A stretch of DNA of 28,726 nt from a virus, in the IMG/VR virus record IMGVR_UViG_3300005077_000936, positions 1 through 28,726 of that record, one strand, 5' to 3'. A model generated the notes under the pieces. The model was given only the letters and a program-made list of their open reading frames with translations. It had not been told where the DNA came from and ran no database searches. Positions 1,881 through 27,541 of the stretch are shown piece after piece. The position numbers and the translations under genes were made by a program. Every line of letters begins with the position of its first letter. Position 1 is the stretch's first letter.

Positions 1881-2567
1881 CTATTTAGGTTCAATATAAT
1901 AGCATCTTGCTCCTGTAACTAATTCTGACCATTCTGTGTCATCAATAACCTCAGGTATTAAATCACCATTTCGATATCTGGTTTCATTTAAATTACTTGC
2001 TAACCATACCTGAGTACCTATTTTGACAGTTAGATAAGACTTACCATCATTGCCTGTCATAATTCCTGTATCTGTATCATCATCTTTGACAAGTCTTACA
2101 GAAGAACCATCTTTTTTTTGTGTTATAGATGTTTCCAATGATTCAATAACTACGGAATCATATGCTATATTTACACATCGAGCAGAAGATTCAGCTGCTT
2201 CTGTTGCAGTCCAAAAAGCTCCATATTCTTTTAAAAAATCACATGATCCTTCACTGTCTCTATTTCCCCCTCCCCTTGCGTGGAATCCTACTTCATCTGT
2301 TGCACCTGTATTTGGTGGATCCCAATGTTCATTTCCAGTCTCCTTCAGTTTACCACCTGCTACAGTATTACCACCAAGATAGATCATTAATGTGTCCCAT
2401 TCTTCAGATGTTGGCACATGCCACCCTTCAGGAGCAATATTCCTTTCATCTGTAGCTGCATACCAATTATAAAATAATCCATAATCATGGGTTACAGGTG
2501 TAAATATACCTTCCTGCTTTCTATCAGAAAGGGCAAGAGATAATCTGTTATTTAATCCATGAGTCAT
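1881..2567 (-). CDS. FISUMP (Fibrobacter succinogenes major paralogous domain) protein, circularly permuted; putative head fibre
   Basis: Motifs YGLFYNWYAA, PEGWHVPTSEEW, AGGKLKETG..HW..PNTGAT, GSSVRLVKD and, after them, DGKSYLTVKIGTQVWLASNL..TRYRNGD.IP. Confidence 0.85.
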   Translation of the reverse strand: MTHGLNNRLSLALSDRKQEGIFTPVTHDYGLFYNWYAATDERNIAPEGWHVPTSEEWDTLMIYLGGNTVAGGKLKETGNEHWDPPNTGATDEVGFHARGGGNRDSEGSCDFLKEYGAFWTATEAAESSARCVNIAYDSVVIESLETSITQKKDGSSVRLVKDDDTDTGIMTGNDGKSYLTVKIGTQVWLASNLNETRYRNGDLIPEVIDDTEWSELVTGARCYYIEPK

Positions 2568-2568
2568 T

Positions 2569-2862
2569 TTACCAATAGATTATGATACCTGAAGCTGTTG
2601 TTGCATCATCAAAGATTTTTTTTACTCTGAATCTGCTGCAAACACCAGCAGTTACAGTAACAGTAATATCTTCACCATTTACAGTAGTGGCATGAACATC
2701 TCCATCTGATGCTACTTCAAAGTATCCGGGCTGTGGAAGATTAACATCATCAGCAGGAGTACAAATATAAGCACCATTGCATACAGCAGTACTTTGTTTG
2801 CGAAGAAGATTAATGATGGTTTTAATAAGTTTTTCCATTGGTGTAAGTATTAATTGTGACAT
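2569..2862 (-). CDS. Spike base protein, Rcc01079 (RcGTA head spike base)-like
   Basis: 97 aa with TPADDVNL..., GDVHATTVNG, AGV...RVKKI...TTASGII, the pattern recalled for the Rcc01079 family (TPSD..DL / GDV.V / AG..LP.RV.RV..TGTTA.GIV). Confidence 0.7.
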   Translation of the reverse strand: MSQLILTPMEKLIKTIINLLRKQSTAVCNGAYICTPADDVNLPQPGYFEVASDGDVHATTVNGEDITVTVTAGVCSRFRVKKIFDDATTASGIIIYW

Positions 2863-3146
2863 CCAAAAGGATCACTAACTGTAGATTGGTTAATAAATGT
2901 TGCAGTATTAAGATCAAGTCCTGTTTCTACAGATTTAATGTAGTTGTAAAACATCTCAAGCCTTATTTCAAAGGTATAATCATTCATAGTTTCAAGCTGA
3001 CTCTCTGTAACAGTGGGAAATATAGTGTCAGCATATACAAAGAGATTCATCCCATTATATGTCTTGGGATATCCTGTCATAATTACACCATCTCTGTATT
3101 TGTAGATAGTTATGACAAGTGATCTTTTTATTCCGTTATTTTCCAT
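2850..3146 (-). CDS. Hypothetical virion protein, paralogue of the N-terminal domain of 3146-3751
   Basis: Start likely ATG 3146 (MENNGIKRS, TAATG coupling); aligns with MSDNNGTKRS...GYPKTY.G of the upstream gene. Confidence 0.7.
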   Translation of the reverse strand: MENNGIKRSLVITIYKYRDGVIMTGYPKTYNGMNLFVYADTIFPTVTESQLETMNDYTFEIRLEMFYNYIKSVETGLDLNTATFINQSTVSDPFGCHN

Positions 3147-3751
3147 TATACCTTTTGACAAACATAGTTAGAGAATGCAATGCTGTAAGTAATCTCATAA
3201 GAGACACTGAATTCTGCAACAAGTTCAATATTCTTTGTTGCTGAGAAGGTATATATGGCACTGAGCTCCTGAGTAGGAGTTCCACCTTCTTCTGTTACTG
3301 TCCAGTAATCAAATTGTGCTCCTGATGCAGGAACTGCTCTTACAGTTACAGAATCATTTTCATATGCAATTGTAGAGCCATATACTGCCCCAAGTGCTTC
3401 GTTGTTTGATGTTACATCAACAACATAATAACTTGAAGGTAATGGACAACCTGTAAGGTCAACAATCTCTGCTTCTGAACCTGCAATAATATCAGTATCA
3501 AAGTCAAGACCTGATTCTTGTGACTCTACCCACAGGATAAAATCAGCAAGCCTTGCCTGATAAGTAACATCACTCATTTCTGCAAGCTGAGAGTCATTAA
3601 TAGCAGTATACTCTGTACCTGTCCAATCTGTCCATGTTGATGATGCTGTCATTCCATCATAAGTCTTAGGATAGCCTGATGCTATAACAGCTCCTTCATA
3701 TTTGGTAACTACTACCTTAAGTGATCTTTTTGTTCCATTATTATCTGACAT
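3146..3751 (-). CDS. Hypothetical virion protein with C-terminal InlB B-repeat/Flg_new-like domain
   Basis: 201 aa; VTVRAVPASGAQFDYW...YTF...NIELVAEF is typical of the divergent InlB B-repeat. Confidence 0.7.
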   Translation of the reverse strand: MSDNNGTKRSLKVVVTKYEGAVIASGYPKTYDGMTASSTWTDWTGTEYTAINDSQLAEMSDVTYQARLADFILWVESQESGLDFDTDIIAGSEAEIVDLTGCPLPSSYYVVDVTSNNEALGAVYGSTIAYENDSVTVRAVPASGAQFDYWTVTEEGGTPTQELSAIYTFSATKNIELVAEFSVSYEITYSIAFSNYVCQKV

Positions 3752-3762
3752 GGCAATTAGTA

Positions 3763-6045
3763 TTATGGTGTTGGTATTATTTGTATTCCCTCTTCTATTT
3801 CGTAGACAATCACATAGTCACCAGGATCTGTAAACATACATCCTGTAACAGGATCAAGCATATTTATGAGTCTCCAGTTATTCTCAGGATCAGCTGTATC
3901 AGTTATAACTACTCTGACATAGAACCTATAATATTTATCAAAATAAACATTGTAGAATGGATGTACATATCTGCACCATGAAGAATTATCAATGTCACAG
4001 ATATCCTTATGTACAGGTTGTGCCATTTCATGATAGAAGTAGAAATCACTTTGAGTATCATCATATGCTATAGCATAAATATACTCTATTCCTATTGGTT
4101 GTAAATATGATGCCTGAGTTGAGTAGCTAAAATTAGCAGTATCAATGGTAGCCTGATAATAAGAAATTCTTGTATCTGCCTGTGAATGGCTATCATTGCA
4201 CTCTACATCAGGAAGTCCATTTGTTGTATTAAGTAGTGATATAGTAAGCTTCTTCTCTGAATCATTCCAAGTTATGGTAGAAGAGAAATGTGCCCTTAAG
4301 TAGATAGTAGCTCCTACATCACTACATCCTGTAGCAACTTTTATGTTAAACAAGAAATTTCTGTAATGATTTATATTACTATTGAGTGGAGAATAGTTGG
4401 TATAATAGGTTGTTGCAATCAGAGCATTATAATTGTTTTTATACCTATCATAGTCAACAGTTTGTTCAAATATTAATGTTATTACATTTCCTACTTTGCT
4501 GATTGTAGCTGAACCTGTCTGATTTACACAAGATAGTGCAGTTCCATATGATCCAGCAGTACAAGCAGTTCTTTTCCTCATCTTTACTGTCTGAGTAAGT
4601 GCTCCTGTTGTAGTAACAGTACCATTTGAAGAGCCCATATAAGAACTGTGATACTTAAATAAATCACAGGTAGCATGATTAAAGGAAGCAAGCATATCAA
4701 ATGTTACCACATAATTACATGTAGCTTCATCCCAAACCATTACAGGAGTAGTATCATCAATTATATTTGCATCAGGATCAATGCAATCACATTCAAAAGT
4801 AGTGAGACATTTAAAGTATAAGCTCCAGCTTGTTGCAAGATTTTCTGGTTCCATTATTCTTGGAGTAACGTGAATCAGAAGATAATCTCCAAGAGTATAA
4901 GTAAATTCAGTTAAGTCACATACACATTGAATGCTTTGAGAACTGAACCTTTTTGGATTTGCATTATAATCTGTACTGTTCTGTTGTGATCCTATAATCC
5001 ATTCATCAATGACAACAGGATTTTCAGGATCAAGTACTGACACATAAGATATAGTTACTTTATCAGCAACTGCAAGTGCATAAAACCAATATGCAAAGTA
5101 ATTGGTACTTCCATCATCAGAAAGCATGAATACAAATTCTCTCTCTGCATCCTGAAGCGGATCTACATTTGCAGTAAAACTTACTACCATTGGATAGGTA
5201 GGATTTGTACCTTGTGTAGAAGAACAATTGATTTCATCTACTGTGATAAAATCAAGACATTCTATTAAATCAGGAGCATATCTTGAACCTTGTTCATAGG
5301 AAGATGTATACTTGTAGAAGTTAATCCAAATGTACTCTATGACAGGATAAAGGTCTCCTGACATTACAGGCTCATCAGTAAATGGATGAGTTGCCTGAAT
5401 AAGAGGGTCACTTCCCACTCCTGTTCTGAATACAATATCTCCATCAACACTTCCGAGATGCCAAGAAATAAGATAATCTCCTATTTCATTTCCTAATGAT
5501 ACAACCTCTCCTACACTAAAAAGACCTACTCCACCCTCATAAGATTCAAAAGCAAGACTAAAGTCATCACATGGAGTATAAGTAAGATAACATATTTCTT
5601 CATTTGTCACGCAAGGGACATAATCTTCATCTTCAGGAACATTTGGTTTTGTCTGCCCTGTAGGAAGATTAGTGGAAACATAATATTCTGTAAGAGTATT
5701 ACAGCAATACTGGCCCGTATTTTCCTCTTCTTCTGTTTCACATTCCCACTCTGAACACTCCCAATATGTTGCAGGTGGAGGTACTATAATTTCTTCTTCC
5801 TGACATACATGATCAATAAACTGTATTCTCATGTATTCTATAGGAACATCTTCTTCATCTGGGTCAATTACAACTGGAGGATCTGTACTGCAATCAACAT
5901 GACTTCTTACTTGAGCAAGATAGTATTTTGATATATCACAATATCTTACAGGATTACAAGCAACCCCATATTTTTTCTGTGATATAAAAAGATGTGCTAT
6001 ATCAAGCAGATCACAGCAATCTATGTTACAATCAATTGCAACCAC
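3763..6045 (-). CDS. Large Cys-rich putative virion structural protein
   Basis: 760-aa ORF (GTG start overlapping the upstream stop), beta-rich and acidic with many Cys pairs; lies in the structural operon. Confidence 0.7.
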   Translation of the reverse strand: MVAIDCNIDCCDLLDIAHLFISQKKYGVACNPVRYCDISKYYLAQVRSHVDCSTDPPVVIDPDEEDVPIEYMRIQFIDHVCQEEEIIVPPPATYWECSEWECETEEEENTGQYCCNTLTEYYVSTNLPTGQTKPNVPEDEDYVPCVTNEEICYLTYTPCDDFSLAFESYEGGVGLFSVGEVVSLGNEIGDYLISWHLGSVDGDIVFRTGVGSDPLIQATHPFTDEPVMSGDLYPVIEYIWINFYKYTSSYEQGSRYAPDLIECLDFITVDEINCSSTQGTNPTYPMVVSFTANVDPLQDAEREFVFMLSDDGSTNYFAYWFYALAVADKVTISYVSVLDPENPVVIDEWIIGSQQNSTDYNANPKRFSSQSIQCVCDLTEFTYTLGDYLLIHVTPRIMEPENLATSWSLYFKCLTTFECDCIDPDANIIDDTTPVMVWDEATCNYVVTFDMLASFNHATCDLFKYHSSYMGSSNGTVTTTGALTQTVKMRKRTACTAGSYGTALSCVNQTGSATISKVGNVITLIFEQTVDYDRYKNNYNALIATTYYTNYSPLNSNINHYRNFLFNIKVATGCSDVGATIYLRAHFSSTITWNDSEKKLTISLLNTTNGLPDVECNDSHSQADTRISYYQATIDTANFSYSTQASYLQPIGIEYIYAIAYDDTQSDFYFYHEMAQPVHKDICDIDNSSWCRYVHPFYNVYFDKYYRFYVRVVITDTADPENNWRLINMLDPVTGCMFTDPGDYVIVYEIEEGIQIIPTP

Positions 6046-25450: not shown

Positions 25451-25945
25451 ATGACAAAGATCAATTTCACACAGGAGCATCAGTGGAGACTCAGAGAGCT
25501 TGCCATGATACTCCTTTTTGATGCCATCAAAATTAAGGGATTGATGGGAACAGAGCTGAATGTATATCAGCTTCTCAATGAAACCAGTATTAATTCCCTT
25601 CAGAACTTGCTTGCCTCCCTCAAGAAAGAGATTTCCAAAATCTCTGAACTTGATATGTGGAGCCTCACCGAATATCAGCAGAATAAGCTGAAAGATCTCC
25701 AGAAGCAGTATGAGTTCATTAACCTCTGTATTGGCTACAAGAAGTATCTTGCTGAGAAGGAAGCCAATAATGAGCAGGTTAAACAGCTCAAAGCTACCCT
25801 CAAGGAATTGCAGGAATCTACCAAGACACCACAGCAGAGAATTGATGAGCTTACTGCCCAAATCAATGCTCTCACAGATGAGACAGCATCTGTTTCTCCT
25901 GTTCCTGTGCCACCTGCACCACCTTCAACAGAACCTGCCAAATAA
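25451..25945 (+). CDS. Coiled-coil hypothetical protein
   Basis: 164 aa, heptad pattern, Pro-rich tail. Confidence 0.8.
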   Translation: MTKINFTQEHQWRLRELAMILLFDAIKIKGLMGTELNVYQLLNETSINSLQNLLASLKKEISKISELDMWSLTEYQQNKLKDLQKQYEFINLCIGYKKYLAEKEANNEQVKQLKATLKELQESTKTPQQRIDELTAQINALTDETASVSPVPVPPAPPSTEPAK

Positions 25946-25982
25946 TATTGGAAGAGAGAAGGACACTTACAAGACATACTCT

Positions 25983-26059
25983 ATACATTTACCTCAGTTG
26001 GTTAGAGGATGAGCCTTCAGAGCCCAGTGTCCCCAGTTCAATTCTGGGAATGTAGTCCA
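25983..26059 (+). tRNA. tRNA with UCA anticodon (opal suppressor-type; amino acid identity unknown)
   Basis: Acceptor ATACATT/AATGTAG (1:72 mismatch), D arm CCTC-AGTTGGTTA-GAGG, anticodon arm TGAGC-CT[TCA]GA-GCCCA (one mismatch), 5-nt variable loop, T arm CCCAG-TTCAATT-CTGGG, discriminator T, encoded CCA. Confidence 0.8.
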
Positions 26060-26093
26060 AAGTGTCCTTCTCTTTTCATAATCTTTTAAGACT

Positions 26094-26606: not shown

Positions 26607-27070
26607 TGATCCATATTAAATCCGCAGATGCTATTCATCAGTATGATGAACAAGGCAGAGCCATTACTACATGGGATGATAAAAAATGTGCATGGATTGT
26701 TAATCCAGAATTTGAGAATCAGGAGATAGATTGGTGGGGAAATGACAACGATTTTCCTGCTGGTAAAACTCTTAAAGATTTTATTTCTTCTAACCCTACT
26801 TGGGACAAAAAACCTGATATTACTGTTAAATGGACTTGGAAAACAAAGCATGATATGATAGCTTGTCTTGGAGCTCCCACTTCTATACCTGAAAGAGAAT
26901 GGTATGATAAGACCATATTTCCTTTTTCTGATTCAAGAAGTTGGGGACATTTAGAATACAATAAGGAAGAAGCTATCATGTACTTAGGTAAATACTGTGG
27001 CTTTAACAAAAATTCCACAACAGTAGTAACATACAATAACGAAGTAATTTTTGAAGGAATCTTAGAATAA
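26606..27070 (+). CDS. Hypothetical Trp-rich protein
   Basis: 154-aa ORF, TGATG coupling. Confidence 0.75.
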   Translation: MIHIKSADAIHQYDEQGRAITTWDDKKCAWIVNPEFENQEIDWWGNDNDFPAGKTLKDFISSNPTWDKKPDITVKWTWKTKHDMIACLGAPTSIPEREWYDKTIFPFSDSRSWGHLEYNKEEAIMYLGKYCGFNKNSTTVVTYNNEVIFEGILE

Positions 27071-27076
27071 TAAAAT

Positions 27077-27183
27077 GGGGGAGCTGATAATAATAGTGTC
27101 ATCTGAACACTTACAAGCCAATTAAAGGTTAATCAATTAGAACTGAGATCTAATCAAAGTTGGTTCAAATCCAACCTCCCCCA
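27077..27183 (+). ncRNA. tRNA-like RNA with ~30-35 nt insertion
   Basis: Perfect acceptor GGGGGAG/CTCCCCC+A and T arm GTTGG-TTCAAAT-CCAAC; 107 nt; non-canonical D and anticodon regions. Confidence 0.65.
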
Positions 27184-27227
27184 CTTTTTTTAATTCACAT
27201 TTTTATTCATTTAACACCCTAAAAAAC

Positions 27228-27368: not shown

Positions 27369-27385
27369 CCCCGATTACCCAAACT

Positions 27386-27455
27386 AAGCTACTTACAATA
27401 TCTTTTTATGGCTGATAACCATATCATGCTGCCATCATGTAAGATTAAGTAGCTT
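27386..27455 (+). other. Long irregular hairpin immediately 5' of tRNA-Glu
   Basis: Nested AAGCTACTTA/TAAGTAGCTT, ATCTT/AAGAT, ATGGC/GCCAT and TGATA/TATCA stems. Confidence 0.6.
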
Positions 27456-27460
27456 TCTTT

Positions 27461-27532
27461 GCCCCTTTCATCTAACGGTTAGGATACAAGATTTTCAGTC
27501 TTGTCATATGAGTTCGATTCTCATAGGGGGTA
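27461..27532 (+). tRNA. tRNA-Glu(TTC)
   Basis: Acceptor GCCCCTT/AGGGGGT, anticodon arm CAAGA-TT[TTC]AG-TCTTG, T arm ATGAG-TTCGATT-CTCAT; CCA not encoded (CAA). Confidence 0.9.
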
Positions 27533-27541
27533 CAAAGTAAA

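What the first reader, a model, noticed from the sequence alone, without database searches (positions are those of the whole stretch)
25983..26059. Opal (UCA) tRNA in a genome segment that still uses TGA as stop
Seen: a canonical-length tRNA with CCA and TCA anticodon and no Sec-type long arm. TGA terminates at least eight genes here (portal, 6032, 17483, 18344, 19955, 21918, 22105, 26606), several in ATGA/TGATG couplings, and TerL, portal and MCP have no in-frame TGA. Known: some Crassvirales recode TGA or TAG and carry suppressor tRNAs. Its features (A1.G72 mismatch, U73, G37) do not look like tRNA-Trp. Inference: a pre-recoding intermediate, recoding confined to another region, regulated readthrough, or sabotage of host termination.
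Basis: partly seen in the sequence, partly recalled or inferred. Interest (0 to 1): 0.75.

Follow-up and report, generated by a model that had tools for sequence, protein, structure and literature searches.

The report
Conserved clamped opal tRNA, no recoding
A crAss-like phage that uses the normal genetic code carries a well-formed tRNA that reads the stop codon UGA; the same odd tRNA, held in the same RNA "clamp" near a Ro60-like gene, is kept in two other normal-code phages, so it is selected for something other than rewriting the code.

Summary
Window 25983-26059 (+) is a real 77-nt tRNA with anticodon UCA. The complete 98.7-kb phage genome uses the standard code: about a quarter of its genes end in TGA, and no gene needs TGA read through.

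New here: the tRNA is the cargo of a conserved RNA cassette. An 18-bp leader/trailer helix (the clamp) ends in the motif ACUUACAA (the handle) and encloses the tRNA. Homologous cassettes in related crAss-like phages carry other anticodons: UUG, UUC, UAU, UGU, AAU, CGU. Two further phages carry tRNA(UCA) with the identical loop CUUCAGA. One of these also shares the clamp words, the A1.G72 mismatch and U73, and differs from ours by 11 compensatory stem changes. All three phages use TGA as a stop wherever examined. All three place the cassette within 0.5-6.2 kb of a gene whose product (modelled only for this phage's copy; the others are 49-51% identical) has a Ro60-like fold.

So the tRNA is under selection, and it is neither a transient pre-recoding accident nor an anticodon sequencing error. 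Whether it decodes UGA weakly (my best guess, 0.45) or acts as a non-decoding Y-RNA-like partner (0.35) is open.

Suppressor tRNAs in standard-code crAss-like phages are published. This scan also noted opal tRNAs in standard-code phages on other DNA.

The parts
25951..25968 (+). 5' arm of the 18-bp clamp helix. Its last bases (...GGACACUU) are the paired part of the handle.
   Evidence: the repeat finder I1: 18-nt arms, 94% complementary, 91 nt apart. The fold of 25945-26085 has z = -5.2 against shuffles. In the 6-member alignment, 9 of the 18 clamp pairs show compensatory changes.
25965..25972 (+). Handle word ACTTACAA: ACUU is paired and ACAA is unpaired. It lies 10 nt upstream of the tRNA 5' end.
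   Evidence: The word occurs 8 times on the + strand of the genome (3.6 expected). Seven of these lie in the RNA-rich stretch 25.9-34.3 kb. Across 10 related loci it occurs 60 times on the + strand, against 7 on the - strand in the nine oriented related loci (9 with own genome); the consensus is aGnYACTTACAAtaCnT.
25969..25982 (+). 14-nt single-stranded leader (ACAAGACAUACUCU) between the clamp and the tRNA. It is the presumed RNase P substrate leader.
   Evidence: Read from the sequence and the fold. Homologous cassettes have leaders of 4-13 nt after the handle word. RNase P cleavage is inferred, not shown.
25983..26059 (+). tRNA(UCA), 77 nt including an encoded CCA, with A1.G72, U73 and loop CUUCAGA.
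   Evidence: ARAGORN and Rfam at 50.8 bits. The ortholog in G006 differs by 11 compensatory stem pairs and shares A1.G72, U73, the anticodon loop and the T loop.
26017..26019 (+). Anticodon TCA, which reads UGA.
   Evidence: The identical loop CTTCAGA occurs in L103 and G006.
26060..26077 (+). 3' arm of the clamp. It starts immediately after the CCA.
27069..27190 (+). Context: a tRNA-like 'mimic' carrying the same handle as an internal hairpin (AGUGU-loop-ACACU-UACAAG).
   Evidence: (I6). Covariance model R1 gives only a weak hit (18 bits).
27380..27460 (+). Context: a handle-bearing hairpin (AAGCUACUUACAAUA...) that ends where tRNA-Glu begins.
   Evidence: the repeat finder I4 and the fold.
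27461..27533 (+). Context: an ordinary tRNA-Glu(UUC) without an encoded CCA.

Best explanation
The gene is a genuine, selection-maintained tRNA with anticodon UCA. It is the cargo of a conserved phage RNA cassette.

In the transcript, the 5' leader and 3' trailer pair into an 18-bp clamp. The inner end of the clamp carries the handle ACUUACAA. The same clamp-plus-handle encloses other tRNAs or tRNA-like RNAs in related crAss-like phages, always close to a gene for a Ro60-like (TROVE plus vWA fold) protein.

Most likely mechanism: the cassette is co-transcribed with the neighbouring + strand genes, and the clamp and handle direct its recognition and maturation. By analogy with Rsr-assisted trimming of the leader/trailer helix of pre-23S rRNA, the Ro60-like protein and host nucleases would help here. 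RNase P would cut after the 14-nt leader, and the encoded CCA would be exposed once the 3' arm is removed. The released tRNA would then read UGA weakly, because it has G37 next to A36 and a weak 1:72 pair. That would give low-level read-through of UGA on host and phage messages, not a change of code.

Shown: the fold; the standard code of the whole genome; the cassette family and its covariation; three independent tRNA(UCA) copies with the identical loop; the Ro60-like fold of the neighbouring protein.

Inferred: expression, processing, which amino acid is attached (Cys, Trp or Gly are possible), actual decoding, and any benefit to the phage.
For: Real tRNA with all tertiary positions intact.

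Standard code:
- ORFs of at least 100 aa cover 0.90 of the genome under code 11.
- Stop use is TAA 63 / TGA 31 / TAG 18 in 112 genes, or 25 TGA in 98 genes of at least 60 aa.
- No same-strand ORF needs an internal TGA.

Cassette family:
- In alignment A2, 91.7% of cells are paired against 40-52% when partners are slid. 22 of 39 pairs show double changes, and 9 of the 18 clamp pairs are compensatory.
- Model R1 finds further members at 60-98 bits.

Selection on the UCA form:
- Own versus G006: 9 stem pairs identical, 11 compensatory, 0 one-sided. A1.G72, U73, the anticodon loop (7/7) and the T loop (7/7) are identical.
- The L103 tRNA is only 51% identical overall but has the same loop CUUCAGA and scores 57 bits in Rfam.
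- Among the eight ARAGORN-called clamped tRNAs, only the three UCA ones have G37; the sense-anticodon ones have A37. The acceptor-less L096 and G006 cargos also have G37.

All three phages are standard code:
- G006: coverage 0.864 under code 11 against 0.872 under code 4; TGA ends 17 of 92 genes; the TerL frame is open.
- L103/L104: TerL (734 aa) and portal (930 aa) are open, and TGA ends 9 of 40 genes.

Ro60-like neighbour: the top 12 PDB matches of the model are all Ro60/Rsr/TROVE, E 2e-6. The gene is 49-52% identical in G006, L029 and L103. The cassette lies 0.5-6.2 kb from it on the same strand.

Published precedent for suppressors without recoding: Yutin 2021 (PMC7886860) and Borges 2021.
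Against: There is no evidence of expression, processing or charging. Reads could not be examined.

No recognised identity set is present: G73 and G1-C72 are absent, and only U73 plus C35 A36 fit Cys (Mukai 2016). The phage encodes no TrpRS/TyrRS-class enzyme, CysRS, release factor or RNase III.

G37 after A36 is atypical for bacterial tRNAs that read U-starting codons (established knowledge). The top of the acceptor stem is weak across the family, with only 50% of cells paired at 1:72 and 2:71.

Some cassettes hold cargo that cannot be charged, or no cargo at all: the L096 cargo has its acceptor strand paired elsewhere, and one L100 clamp is empty.

In G006, 17 ordinary tRNAs sit untagged in a separate array, while tRNA(UCA) sits among handles beside the Ro60-like gene. 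That favours a non-decoding role.

The genome shows no adaptation to suppression. TGA stops are not depleted, back-up stops are not significantly closer (p = 0.055, and the pattern is similar in a relative without any detected tRNA), and some read-through extensions would run 24-119 codons.
Confidence: 0.45

Rival explanations
1. Non-decoding Y-RNA-like partner. The clamped RNA is never released as a chargeable tRNA. The terminal 5'-3' helix plus handle binds the phage Ro60-like protein, as the terminal stem of a Y RNA binds Ro60. The tRNA body, including its conserved CUUCAGA loop, is an effector or bait surface, for example for a tRNA-binding host factor, a nuclease or the ribosome. On this reading the 'opal' anticodon is not used to insert an amino acid.
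For: The architecture is that of a Y RNA: a terminal stem formed by both ends, with an internal module. Bacterial and phage Y RNAs mimic tRNA and lie within a few kb of Ro60 on the same strand (Chen 2014; phiLo Ro60).

The neighbouring protein has a Ro60-like fold.

The handle is shared with RNAs that cannot decode: the expanded tRNAs at 31.1 and 31.5 kb, the mimic, the L096 cargo without acceptor pairing and the empty clamp.

G006 separates 17 normal tRNAs from the tagged UCA one. The 1:72 mismatch is conserved. There is no client gene and no code change.
Against: The cargo keeps every feature of a decoding elongator tRNA, including U33, a purine at 37, a 7-nt loop and, in our phage, an encoded CCA right at the clamp junction.

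The published Ro60-binding motifs (GNCGAAN0-1G, CGAA) are absent, and the tRNA is not permuted as it is in YrlA. There is no YrlA hit in Rfam.

M. smegmatis YrlA can itself be cut by RNase P and receive CCA (section heading in PMC4201824), so tagging does not exclude maturation.
Confidence: 0.35
2. Pre-recoding intermediate. A suppressor has just arisen or been acquired, is nearly neutral, and opens the way to later TGA-to-sense recoding.
For: A suppressor tRNA without reassignment is described as 'pre-emergence' in crAss-like phages and in Agate phages. Homologous cassettes with sense anticodons exist.
Against: The same tRNA(UCA) is conserved in three standard-code phages whose TerL is only 25-28% identical to ours. 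Own and G006 copies differ by 11 compensatory changes, so the state is old and stable.

TGA stops are not depleted: 26% here, against 13% in G003 and 0 of 34 in Fpv2. That is the opposite of the Borges path.
Confidence: 0.08
3. Dedicated read-through of one or a few client genes. The tRNA exists to extend or complete particular phage proteins that end in, or are interrupted by, UGA.
For: This scan noted such a client in another standard-code phage (e1-5348623; not checked by me). 25-31 genes here end in TGA, and a few extensions would be long (24-119 codons).
Against: No ORF pair is joined in frame by a TGA, and no gap holds a TGA-containing ORF that looks coding. The one conserved protein tested ends at the TGA exactly where its homologue ends, and its G006 ortholog ends in TAG. 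The long extensions run through the next gene in another frame.
Confidence: 0.07
4. Decayed tRNA gene, or an assembly or sequencing error in the anticodon.
For: There are two stem mismatches (A1.G72 and A29.C41). I found no homologue in IMG/VR or JGI metagenomes with the first loop-only patterns.
Against: The loop CUUCAGA, A1.G72 and U73 recur in independent assemblies with compensatory stem changes. All tertiary positions are intact.
Confidence: 0.03

Closest known systems
Suppressor tRNAs in crAss-like phages without detectable codon reassignment ('suppressor pre-emergence', Yutin et al. 2021, PMC7886860; a standard-code Agate phage with a TGA suppressor, Borges et al. 2021, bioRxiv 10.1101/2021.08.26.457843)
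   Same: A crAss-like phage with a stop-anticodon tRNA and a genome that shows no reassignment of that stop.
   Different: The published cases are single genomes read as incipient code change, for example a one-base TTG-to-TTA mutation. Here the UCA tRNA is conserved across three distant standard-code phages. It has a fixed unusual loop (G37), a conserved A1.G72 mismatch and U73 (own and G006 copies only), and it sits in a clamp/handle cassette near a Ro60-like gene. TGA stops are not depleted.
tRNA(UCA) suppressors of TGA-recoded (code 4) phages: zeta and beta crAss-like, Agate, Jade
   Same: A phage-encoded tRNA with anticodon UCA and a normal 7/5 cloverleaf.
   Different: Those phages have in-frame TGA in late genes, read as Trp. 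This phage and its two UCA-bearing relatives have none in any gene examined, and the tRNA lacks the Trp identity element G73.
Ro60 (Rsr) with Y RNAs, including the tRNA-mimicking YrlA of bacteria and mycobacteriophages (Chen et al. 2014, PMC4201824) and Thermus phage phiLo Ro60 with Yrl1/2 (PMC12135203)
   Same: A Ro60-fold protein gene with several small structured RNAs nearby on the same strand. Each RNA is closed by a helix made of its two ends, followed by a conserved single-stranded motif, and it displays tRNA features.
   Different: The motif is ACUUACAA(U/G)AC, not GNCGAA or CGAA. The module is a complete, unpermuted tRNA with a canonical anticodon loop, in our phage with an encoded CCA. 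Pfam TROVE and DUF2828 do not match the protein, and Rfam YrlA does not match the RNA.
selC*-type tRNACys(UCA) opal tRNAs (Mukai et al. 2016, PMC5389517)
   Same: UCA anticodon with U73 and A at position 1. That paper shows that some CysRS forms can charge tRNA(UCA).
   Different: Those are 8/4 tRNAs of delta-proteobacteria linked to selB*/cysS*. This is a 7/5 tRNA in a phage with no synthetase gene.

Membership tests
Opal suppressor tRNA of TGA-recoded (code 4) phages | tRNA fold with anticodon UCA | tested here: met
   ARAGORN and Rfam, 50.8 bits.
Opal suppressor tRNA of TGA-recoded (code 4) phages | In-frame TGA in conserved (late) genes of the same genome | tested here: not met
   TerL, portal and MCP are open under code 11. 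No ORF anywhere in the genome needs a TGA.
Opal suppressor tRNA of TGA-recoded (code 4) phages | Trp-type identity (bacterial G73, with A1-U72 paired) | tested here: not met
   The tRNA has U73 and A1.G72. The rule is from established knowledge of TrpRS identity.
Suppressor tRNA in a standard-code phage ('pre-emergence') | Stop anticodon with no reassignment of that stop in the genome | tested here: met
Suppressor tRNA in a standard-code phage ('pre-emergence') | Recent, lineage-restricted origin from a sense tRNA by a point change | tested here: not met
   The UCA form is shared by three distant phages with 11 compensatory changes between the own and G006 copies. The nearest sense cargos (UUC, UUG) differ at two or more loop positions.
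tRNA-Sec | 8/5 acceptor/T branch and a long variable arm | tested here: not met
   7/5 architecture and a 5-nt variable loop. The ARAGORN label rests on the anticodon only.
Y RNA / YrlA with Ro60 | Ro60 ortholog encoded nearby on the same strand | tested here: met
   For the 616-aa protein at genome 32218-34068, the top 12 PDB fold matches are all Ro60/Rsr/TROVE. Pfam TROVE and DUF2828 do not match, so the relation is seen at fold level only.
Y RNA / YrlA with Ro60 | Terminal helix formed by the 5' and 3' ends of the RNA | tested here: met
   18-bp clamp with covariation. The true RNA ends are unknown.
Y RNA / YrlA with Ro60 | GNCGAAN0-1G / CGAA Ro60-binding motif, and a permuted tRNA-like domain with a closed acceptor hairpin | tested here: not met
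   The motif is absent from 25945-26085, and the tRNA has the normal order. There is no Rfam YrlA match.
Y RNA / YrlA with Ro60 | Physical binding to Ro60 | not testable with these tools
   Needs EMSA or pull-down experiments.
selC*-type tRNACys(UCA) | U73 with a UCA anticodon | tested here: met
   criteria from PMC5389517.
selC*-type tRNACys(UCA) | 8/4 structure and linkage to selB*/cysS* | tested here: not met
   7/5 structure. No CysRS domain in the genome.

The most novel reading that the evidence does not exclude
The clamp/handle cassettes are a family of 'anticodon-addressed' Y-like RNAs. A phage Ro60-like ring protein would be coupled through the handle to a complete tRNA whose anticodon is exchangeable between phages. 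The UCA version would direct the particle, or a weakly charged tRNA, to ribosomes waiting at UGA stop codons. This would let the phage interfere with RF2-dependent termination or ribosome rescue without changing its own code.
Probability: 0.12. Interest if true: 0.85.

Novelty: new variant of a known kind. Interest (0 to 1): 0.6.

Why it matters
Suppressor tRNAs in phages have been read either as the engine of stop-codon recoding or as its first accidental step. Here an opal tRNA with fixed, unusual features is kept by selection in three distant phages that still end a fifth to a quarter of their genes with TGA. It is packaged in a conserved leader/trailer clamp and linked to a Ro60-like gene.

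This gives a concrete, cloneable system for two questions. What does a stop-reading tRNA do for a virus that does not recode? What are Ro60-like proteins and their tRNA-shaped RNAs for in the very abundant crAss-like phages?

It also warns annotators that a tRNA(UCA) call is not, by itself, evidence of code 4.

Tried and rejected
- **Recoding elsewhere in the genome.** Code 4 and code 15 give no real gain. The extra 'ORFs' are antisense or off-frame.
- **Client gene.** No TGA-joined ORF pairs and no convincing TGA-bearing ORFs in gaps. The 616-aa protein stops where its homologue stops.
- **Adaptation of TGA stops by back-up stops.** Not significant (p = 0.055), with a similar pattern in G003, a relative in which no tRNA was detected.
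- **Phage release factor, TrpRS/TyrRS-class enzyme, CysRS, RNase III.** None found.
- **tRNA-Sec.** Rejected on structure.
- **Homologues by exact or loop-only patterns in IMG/VR and JGI metagenomes.** Only chance hits or unrelated giant-virus tRNA-Ile.
- **Neighbouring ORFs as probes.** The 170-aa product is an ORFan.
- **TerL relatives in IMG/VR.** Fragments, plus one 79.8-kb contig (G003), none with a detected tRNA.
- **Origin from a named bacterial isotype.** BLAST of the tRNA against phage records gives only generic tRNA similarity, so the ancestry by isotype is undetermined.
- **Clamp as terminal repeats of a mobile element.** The arm words are single-copy in the genome. The helix contains G.U pairs, and the model scores 130-140 bits on the + strand against about 26 on the - strand. 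An RNA helix is favoured.
- **Handle as a sigma-70-type promoter.** The consensus scan is not above shuffles and gives no hit at the handle. A phage-specific promoter role cannot be excluded, but covariation of the bases before UUACAA argues for structure.
- **Kissing interaction.** The anticodon loop (UCAGA) is complementary to the handle-hairpin loop of the mimic (UCUGA), but this is seen only in this genome and not in G006 or L103.
- **YrlA membership.** The motif and the permutation are absent.
- 'Relatives' are not available for virus records. Logan contigs cannot be searched whole.

Full report
**1. The observation**

ARAGORN finds two tRNAs in the window. One lies at 25983-26059 (+) with anticodon tca. 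A local Rfam scan scores it as tRNA at 50.8 bits, E 3e-10. The whole-window scan at gathering threshold missed it (I attribute this to the speed filters).

Read from the sequence, it is a 7/5 cloverleaf with a 5-nt variable loop. Its features are:
- anticodon loop CUUCAGA, with the anticodon at 26017-26019 and G37;
- mismatches A1.G72 and A29.C41;
- discriminator U73 and an encoded CCA;
- all usual tertiary positions: U8-A14, G15-C48, G18 G19, U54 U55 C56, A58.

It is not Sec-type; ARAGORN's 'SeC' label follows the anticodon only.

**2. Genome and genetic code**

The window is bases 1-28726 of a single 98,740-base IMG/VR record rated 100% complete.
- TerL, portal and MCP match crAss-type PHROG families.
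- The nearest cultured relatives are Flavobacterium phages of the Fpv/FpV4 group, with TerL 48% identical.
- ORFs of at least 100 aa cover 0.90 of the genome under code 11.
- A greedy gene set has 112 genes with stops TAA 63, TGA 31, TAG 18. Counting only genes of at least 60 aa gives 25 TGA in 98.
- Under code 4 the additional ORFs are antisense or off-frame. No same-strand ORF pair is joined by a TGA, and no gap hides a convincing TGA-bearing ORF.
- The one conserved TGA-terminated protein I tested ends exactly where its 52%-identical homologue ends.
- The genome has no release factor, class Ib synthetase (Trp/Tyr), CysRS or RNase III domain.
- TGA stops are not depleted. Relatives with lower GC content use fewer: 9 of 67 in G003 and 0 of 34 in Fpv2.
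- Back-up stops after TGA are not significantly closer than after other stops (p = 0.055).

**3. The clamp and the handle**

The tRNA lies inside an inverted repeat, 25951-25968 paired with 26060-26077: 18 nt, 94% complementary. The fold of 25945-26085 has z = -5.2. The 3' arm starts right after the CCA. The 5' arm is followed by a 14-nt leader.

The last bases of the 5' arm and the first bases of the leader spell ACTTACAA. This word occurs 8 times on the + strand of the genome (3.6 expected). Seven of these lie in non-coding, RNA-rich DNA between 25.9 and 34.3 kb:
- before the opal tRNA;
- inside the 'tRNA mimic' at 27.1 kb;
- in a hairpin that abuts tRNA-Glu;
- at 29.7 kb;
- in the two expanded tRNAs at 31.1 and 31.5 kb;
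- at 34.3 kb.

In every case ...ACU(U) is paired, in a hairpin or a long-range helix, and ACAA is unpaired.

**4. Relatives and the cassette family**

The immediate neighbour proteins are ORFans. Contigs found through a conserved 224-aa protein and through the 616-aa protein show the same cassette: clamp, handle, a short leader, then a tRNA.

A six-member alignment (A2) gives the following counts:
- 91.7% of cells paired, against 40-52% when the partners are slid;
- 22 of 39 pairs with changes on both sides;
- 9 of the 18 clamp pairs compensatory;
- only 50% pairing at 1:72 and 2:71.

A covariance model (R1) finds further members.

Cargo anticodons differ between phages:

| Phage / locus | Cargo |
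|---|---|
| This phage | UCA |
| L097 | UUG and UAU |
| L027 | UUC and UGU |
| L100 | AAU |
| L102 | CGU |
| L096 | GUG-like cargo whose acceptor strand pairs elsewhere |
| L100 (second clamp) | empty |
| G006 (second cassette) | tRNA-like cargo with a UUG-type loop and a non-canonical D arm |

The handle consensus is aGnYACTTACAAtaCnT. It occurs 60 times on the + strand of ten loci; on the - strand it occurs 7 times in the nine oriented related loci, 9 counting our own genome.

**5. Two more opal tRNAs**

L103 is a Logan contig of 87.9 kb. It carries a clamped, handle-led tRNA(UCA) that scores 57 bits in Rfam. It is only 51% identical to ours but has the same loop CUUCAGA.

A pattern scan of IMG/VR then found G006, a 71.8-kb contig. 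Its tRNA(UCA) has the same GGACACUU clamp words, the same A1.G72 mismatch, U73, and identical anticodon and T loops. Of the 21 stem pairs, 9 are identical to ours and 11 are changed on both sides while staying paired.

Among the eight ARAGORN-called clamped tRNAs, only the three UCA ones have G37; the sense-anticodon ones have A37. The acceptor-less L096 cargo and the G006 second cassette also have G37. An anticodon error is also very unlikely.

Both other phages use the standard code where I could look:
- G006: coverage 0.864 under code 11 against 0.872 under code 4; TGA ends 17 of 92 genes; the TerL frame is open.
- L103/L104: TerL and portal are open, and TGA ends 9 of 40 genes.

Their TerL proteins are only 25-28% identical to ours. 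The conservation therefore spans distant crAss-like lineages, or the module moves between them.

**6. The Ro60-like neighbour**

The 616-aa protein at genome 32218-34068, 6.2 kb downstream on the same strand, has no Pfam match. An AlphaFold model (pLDDT 82.8) finds Ro60, Rsr, TROVE and phage phiLo Ro60 as its top 12 PDB matches over the full length, E 2e-6. It also has a vWA MIDAS motif.

Homologues are common: 684 proteins. In G006 the opal cassette sits among eight handles 3.1 kb upstream of this gene, whose product is 49% identical to ours. The 17 ordinary tRNAs of that phage lie untagged in a separate array. In L103 the cassette is 0.5 kb downstream of the gene.

Published Y RNAs are closed by a 5'-3' stem, carry a conserved motif, often mimic tRNA and lie near Ro60. 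Here the motif differs, and the module is a complete, unpermuted tRNA.

**7. Interpretation**

Shown:
- a folded tRNA(UCA) under purifying selection;
- a conserved clamp/handle cassette;
- linkage to a Ro60-like gene;
- standard code in all three carriers.

Not shown: expression, processing, charging or decoding.

I rate a weakly decoding, matured tRNA at 0.45. A non-decoding Y-RNA-like role gets 0.35, a transient pre-recoding state 0.08, a dedicated client 0.07, and decay or error 0.03.

The amino-acid identity is open. U73 with C35 A36 fits Cys best. A1 with C35 A36 hints at Trp. U73 with C35 hints at Gly.

**8. What is known**

Suppressor tRNAs without reassignment are described in crAss-like and Agate phages. 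Earlier notes of this scan record opal tRNAs in standard-code phages and helix-plus-motif 'handles' with interchangeable tRNA cargo beside Ro60-like genes on other DNA.

I found no paper that describes a conserved, clamped tRNA(UCA) linked to a Ro60-like gene in standard-code phages.

Noticed in passing
window 27380-27460, next to tRNA-Glu at 27461-27533: A hairpin with 16-nt arms carrying the handle (AAGCUACUUACAAUA) ends exactly where tRNA-Glu begins. The same arm words recur at genome 29717-29842.
   Followed up: partly
window 27069-27190: A tRNA-like 'mimic' with perfect acceptor and T arms and a handle hairpin (AGUGU-CAUCUGA-ACACU-UACAAG) in its D region. Its hairpin loop UCUGA is complementary to UCAGA of the opal anticodon loop, but this is not seen in the other two UCA-bearing phages.
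   Followed up: partly
L029 11032-11479; L096 13967-14316; L097 12460-12816: Related crAss-like contigs carry tmRNA-like genes (Rfam tmRNA, 57-92 bits) a few kb from the Ro60-like gene. ARAGORN finds none in our genome.
   Followed up: no
L100 9889-9973: A GGACACUU clamp with handle that encloses only about 38 nt and no tRNA: an 'empty' cassette.
   Followed up: no
G006 (L148-L151): tRNAs at 46069-49872; handles at 2003-5199 (- strand): This phage keeps 17 ordinary untagged tRNAs in one array. Its tRNA(UCA) sits alone among eight handles beside the Ro60-like gene.
   Followed up: yes
own genome 62532-90403 (- strand), outside the window: Giant ORFs 85454-90403, 83954-85450 and 81548-83950 lie in one reading frame, separated only by TAA plus one codon. 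The same holds for 67839-81545 and 62532-67835.
   Followed up: no
window 12302, 6032, 18344, 623 (- strand gene ends): Four late genes, including portal, end TGA-NNN-TAA or TGA-NNN-NNN-TAA. Across the genome, the closeness of back-up stops is not significant.
   Followed up: yes
own genome 32218-34068 (L030 7219-9069), outside the window: A 616-aa protein with no Pfam match folds like Ro60 (TROVE ring plus vWA with DDSGSM). It has 684 homologues, mostly on crAss-sized contigs.
   Followed up: yes
alignment A1: Of the phage's three ordinary-length tRNAs, only the opal one has an encoded CCA. Among homologous cassettes, L097 tRNA(UAU) also ends U73-CCA directly before the 3' clamp arm.
   Followed up: partly
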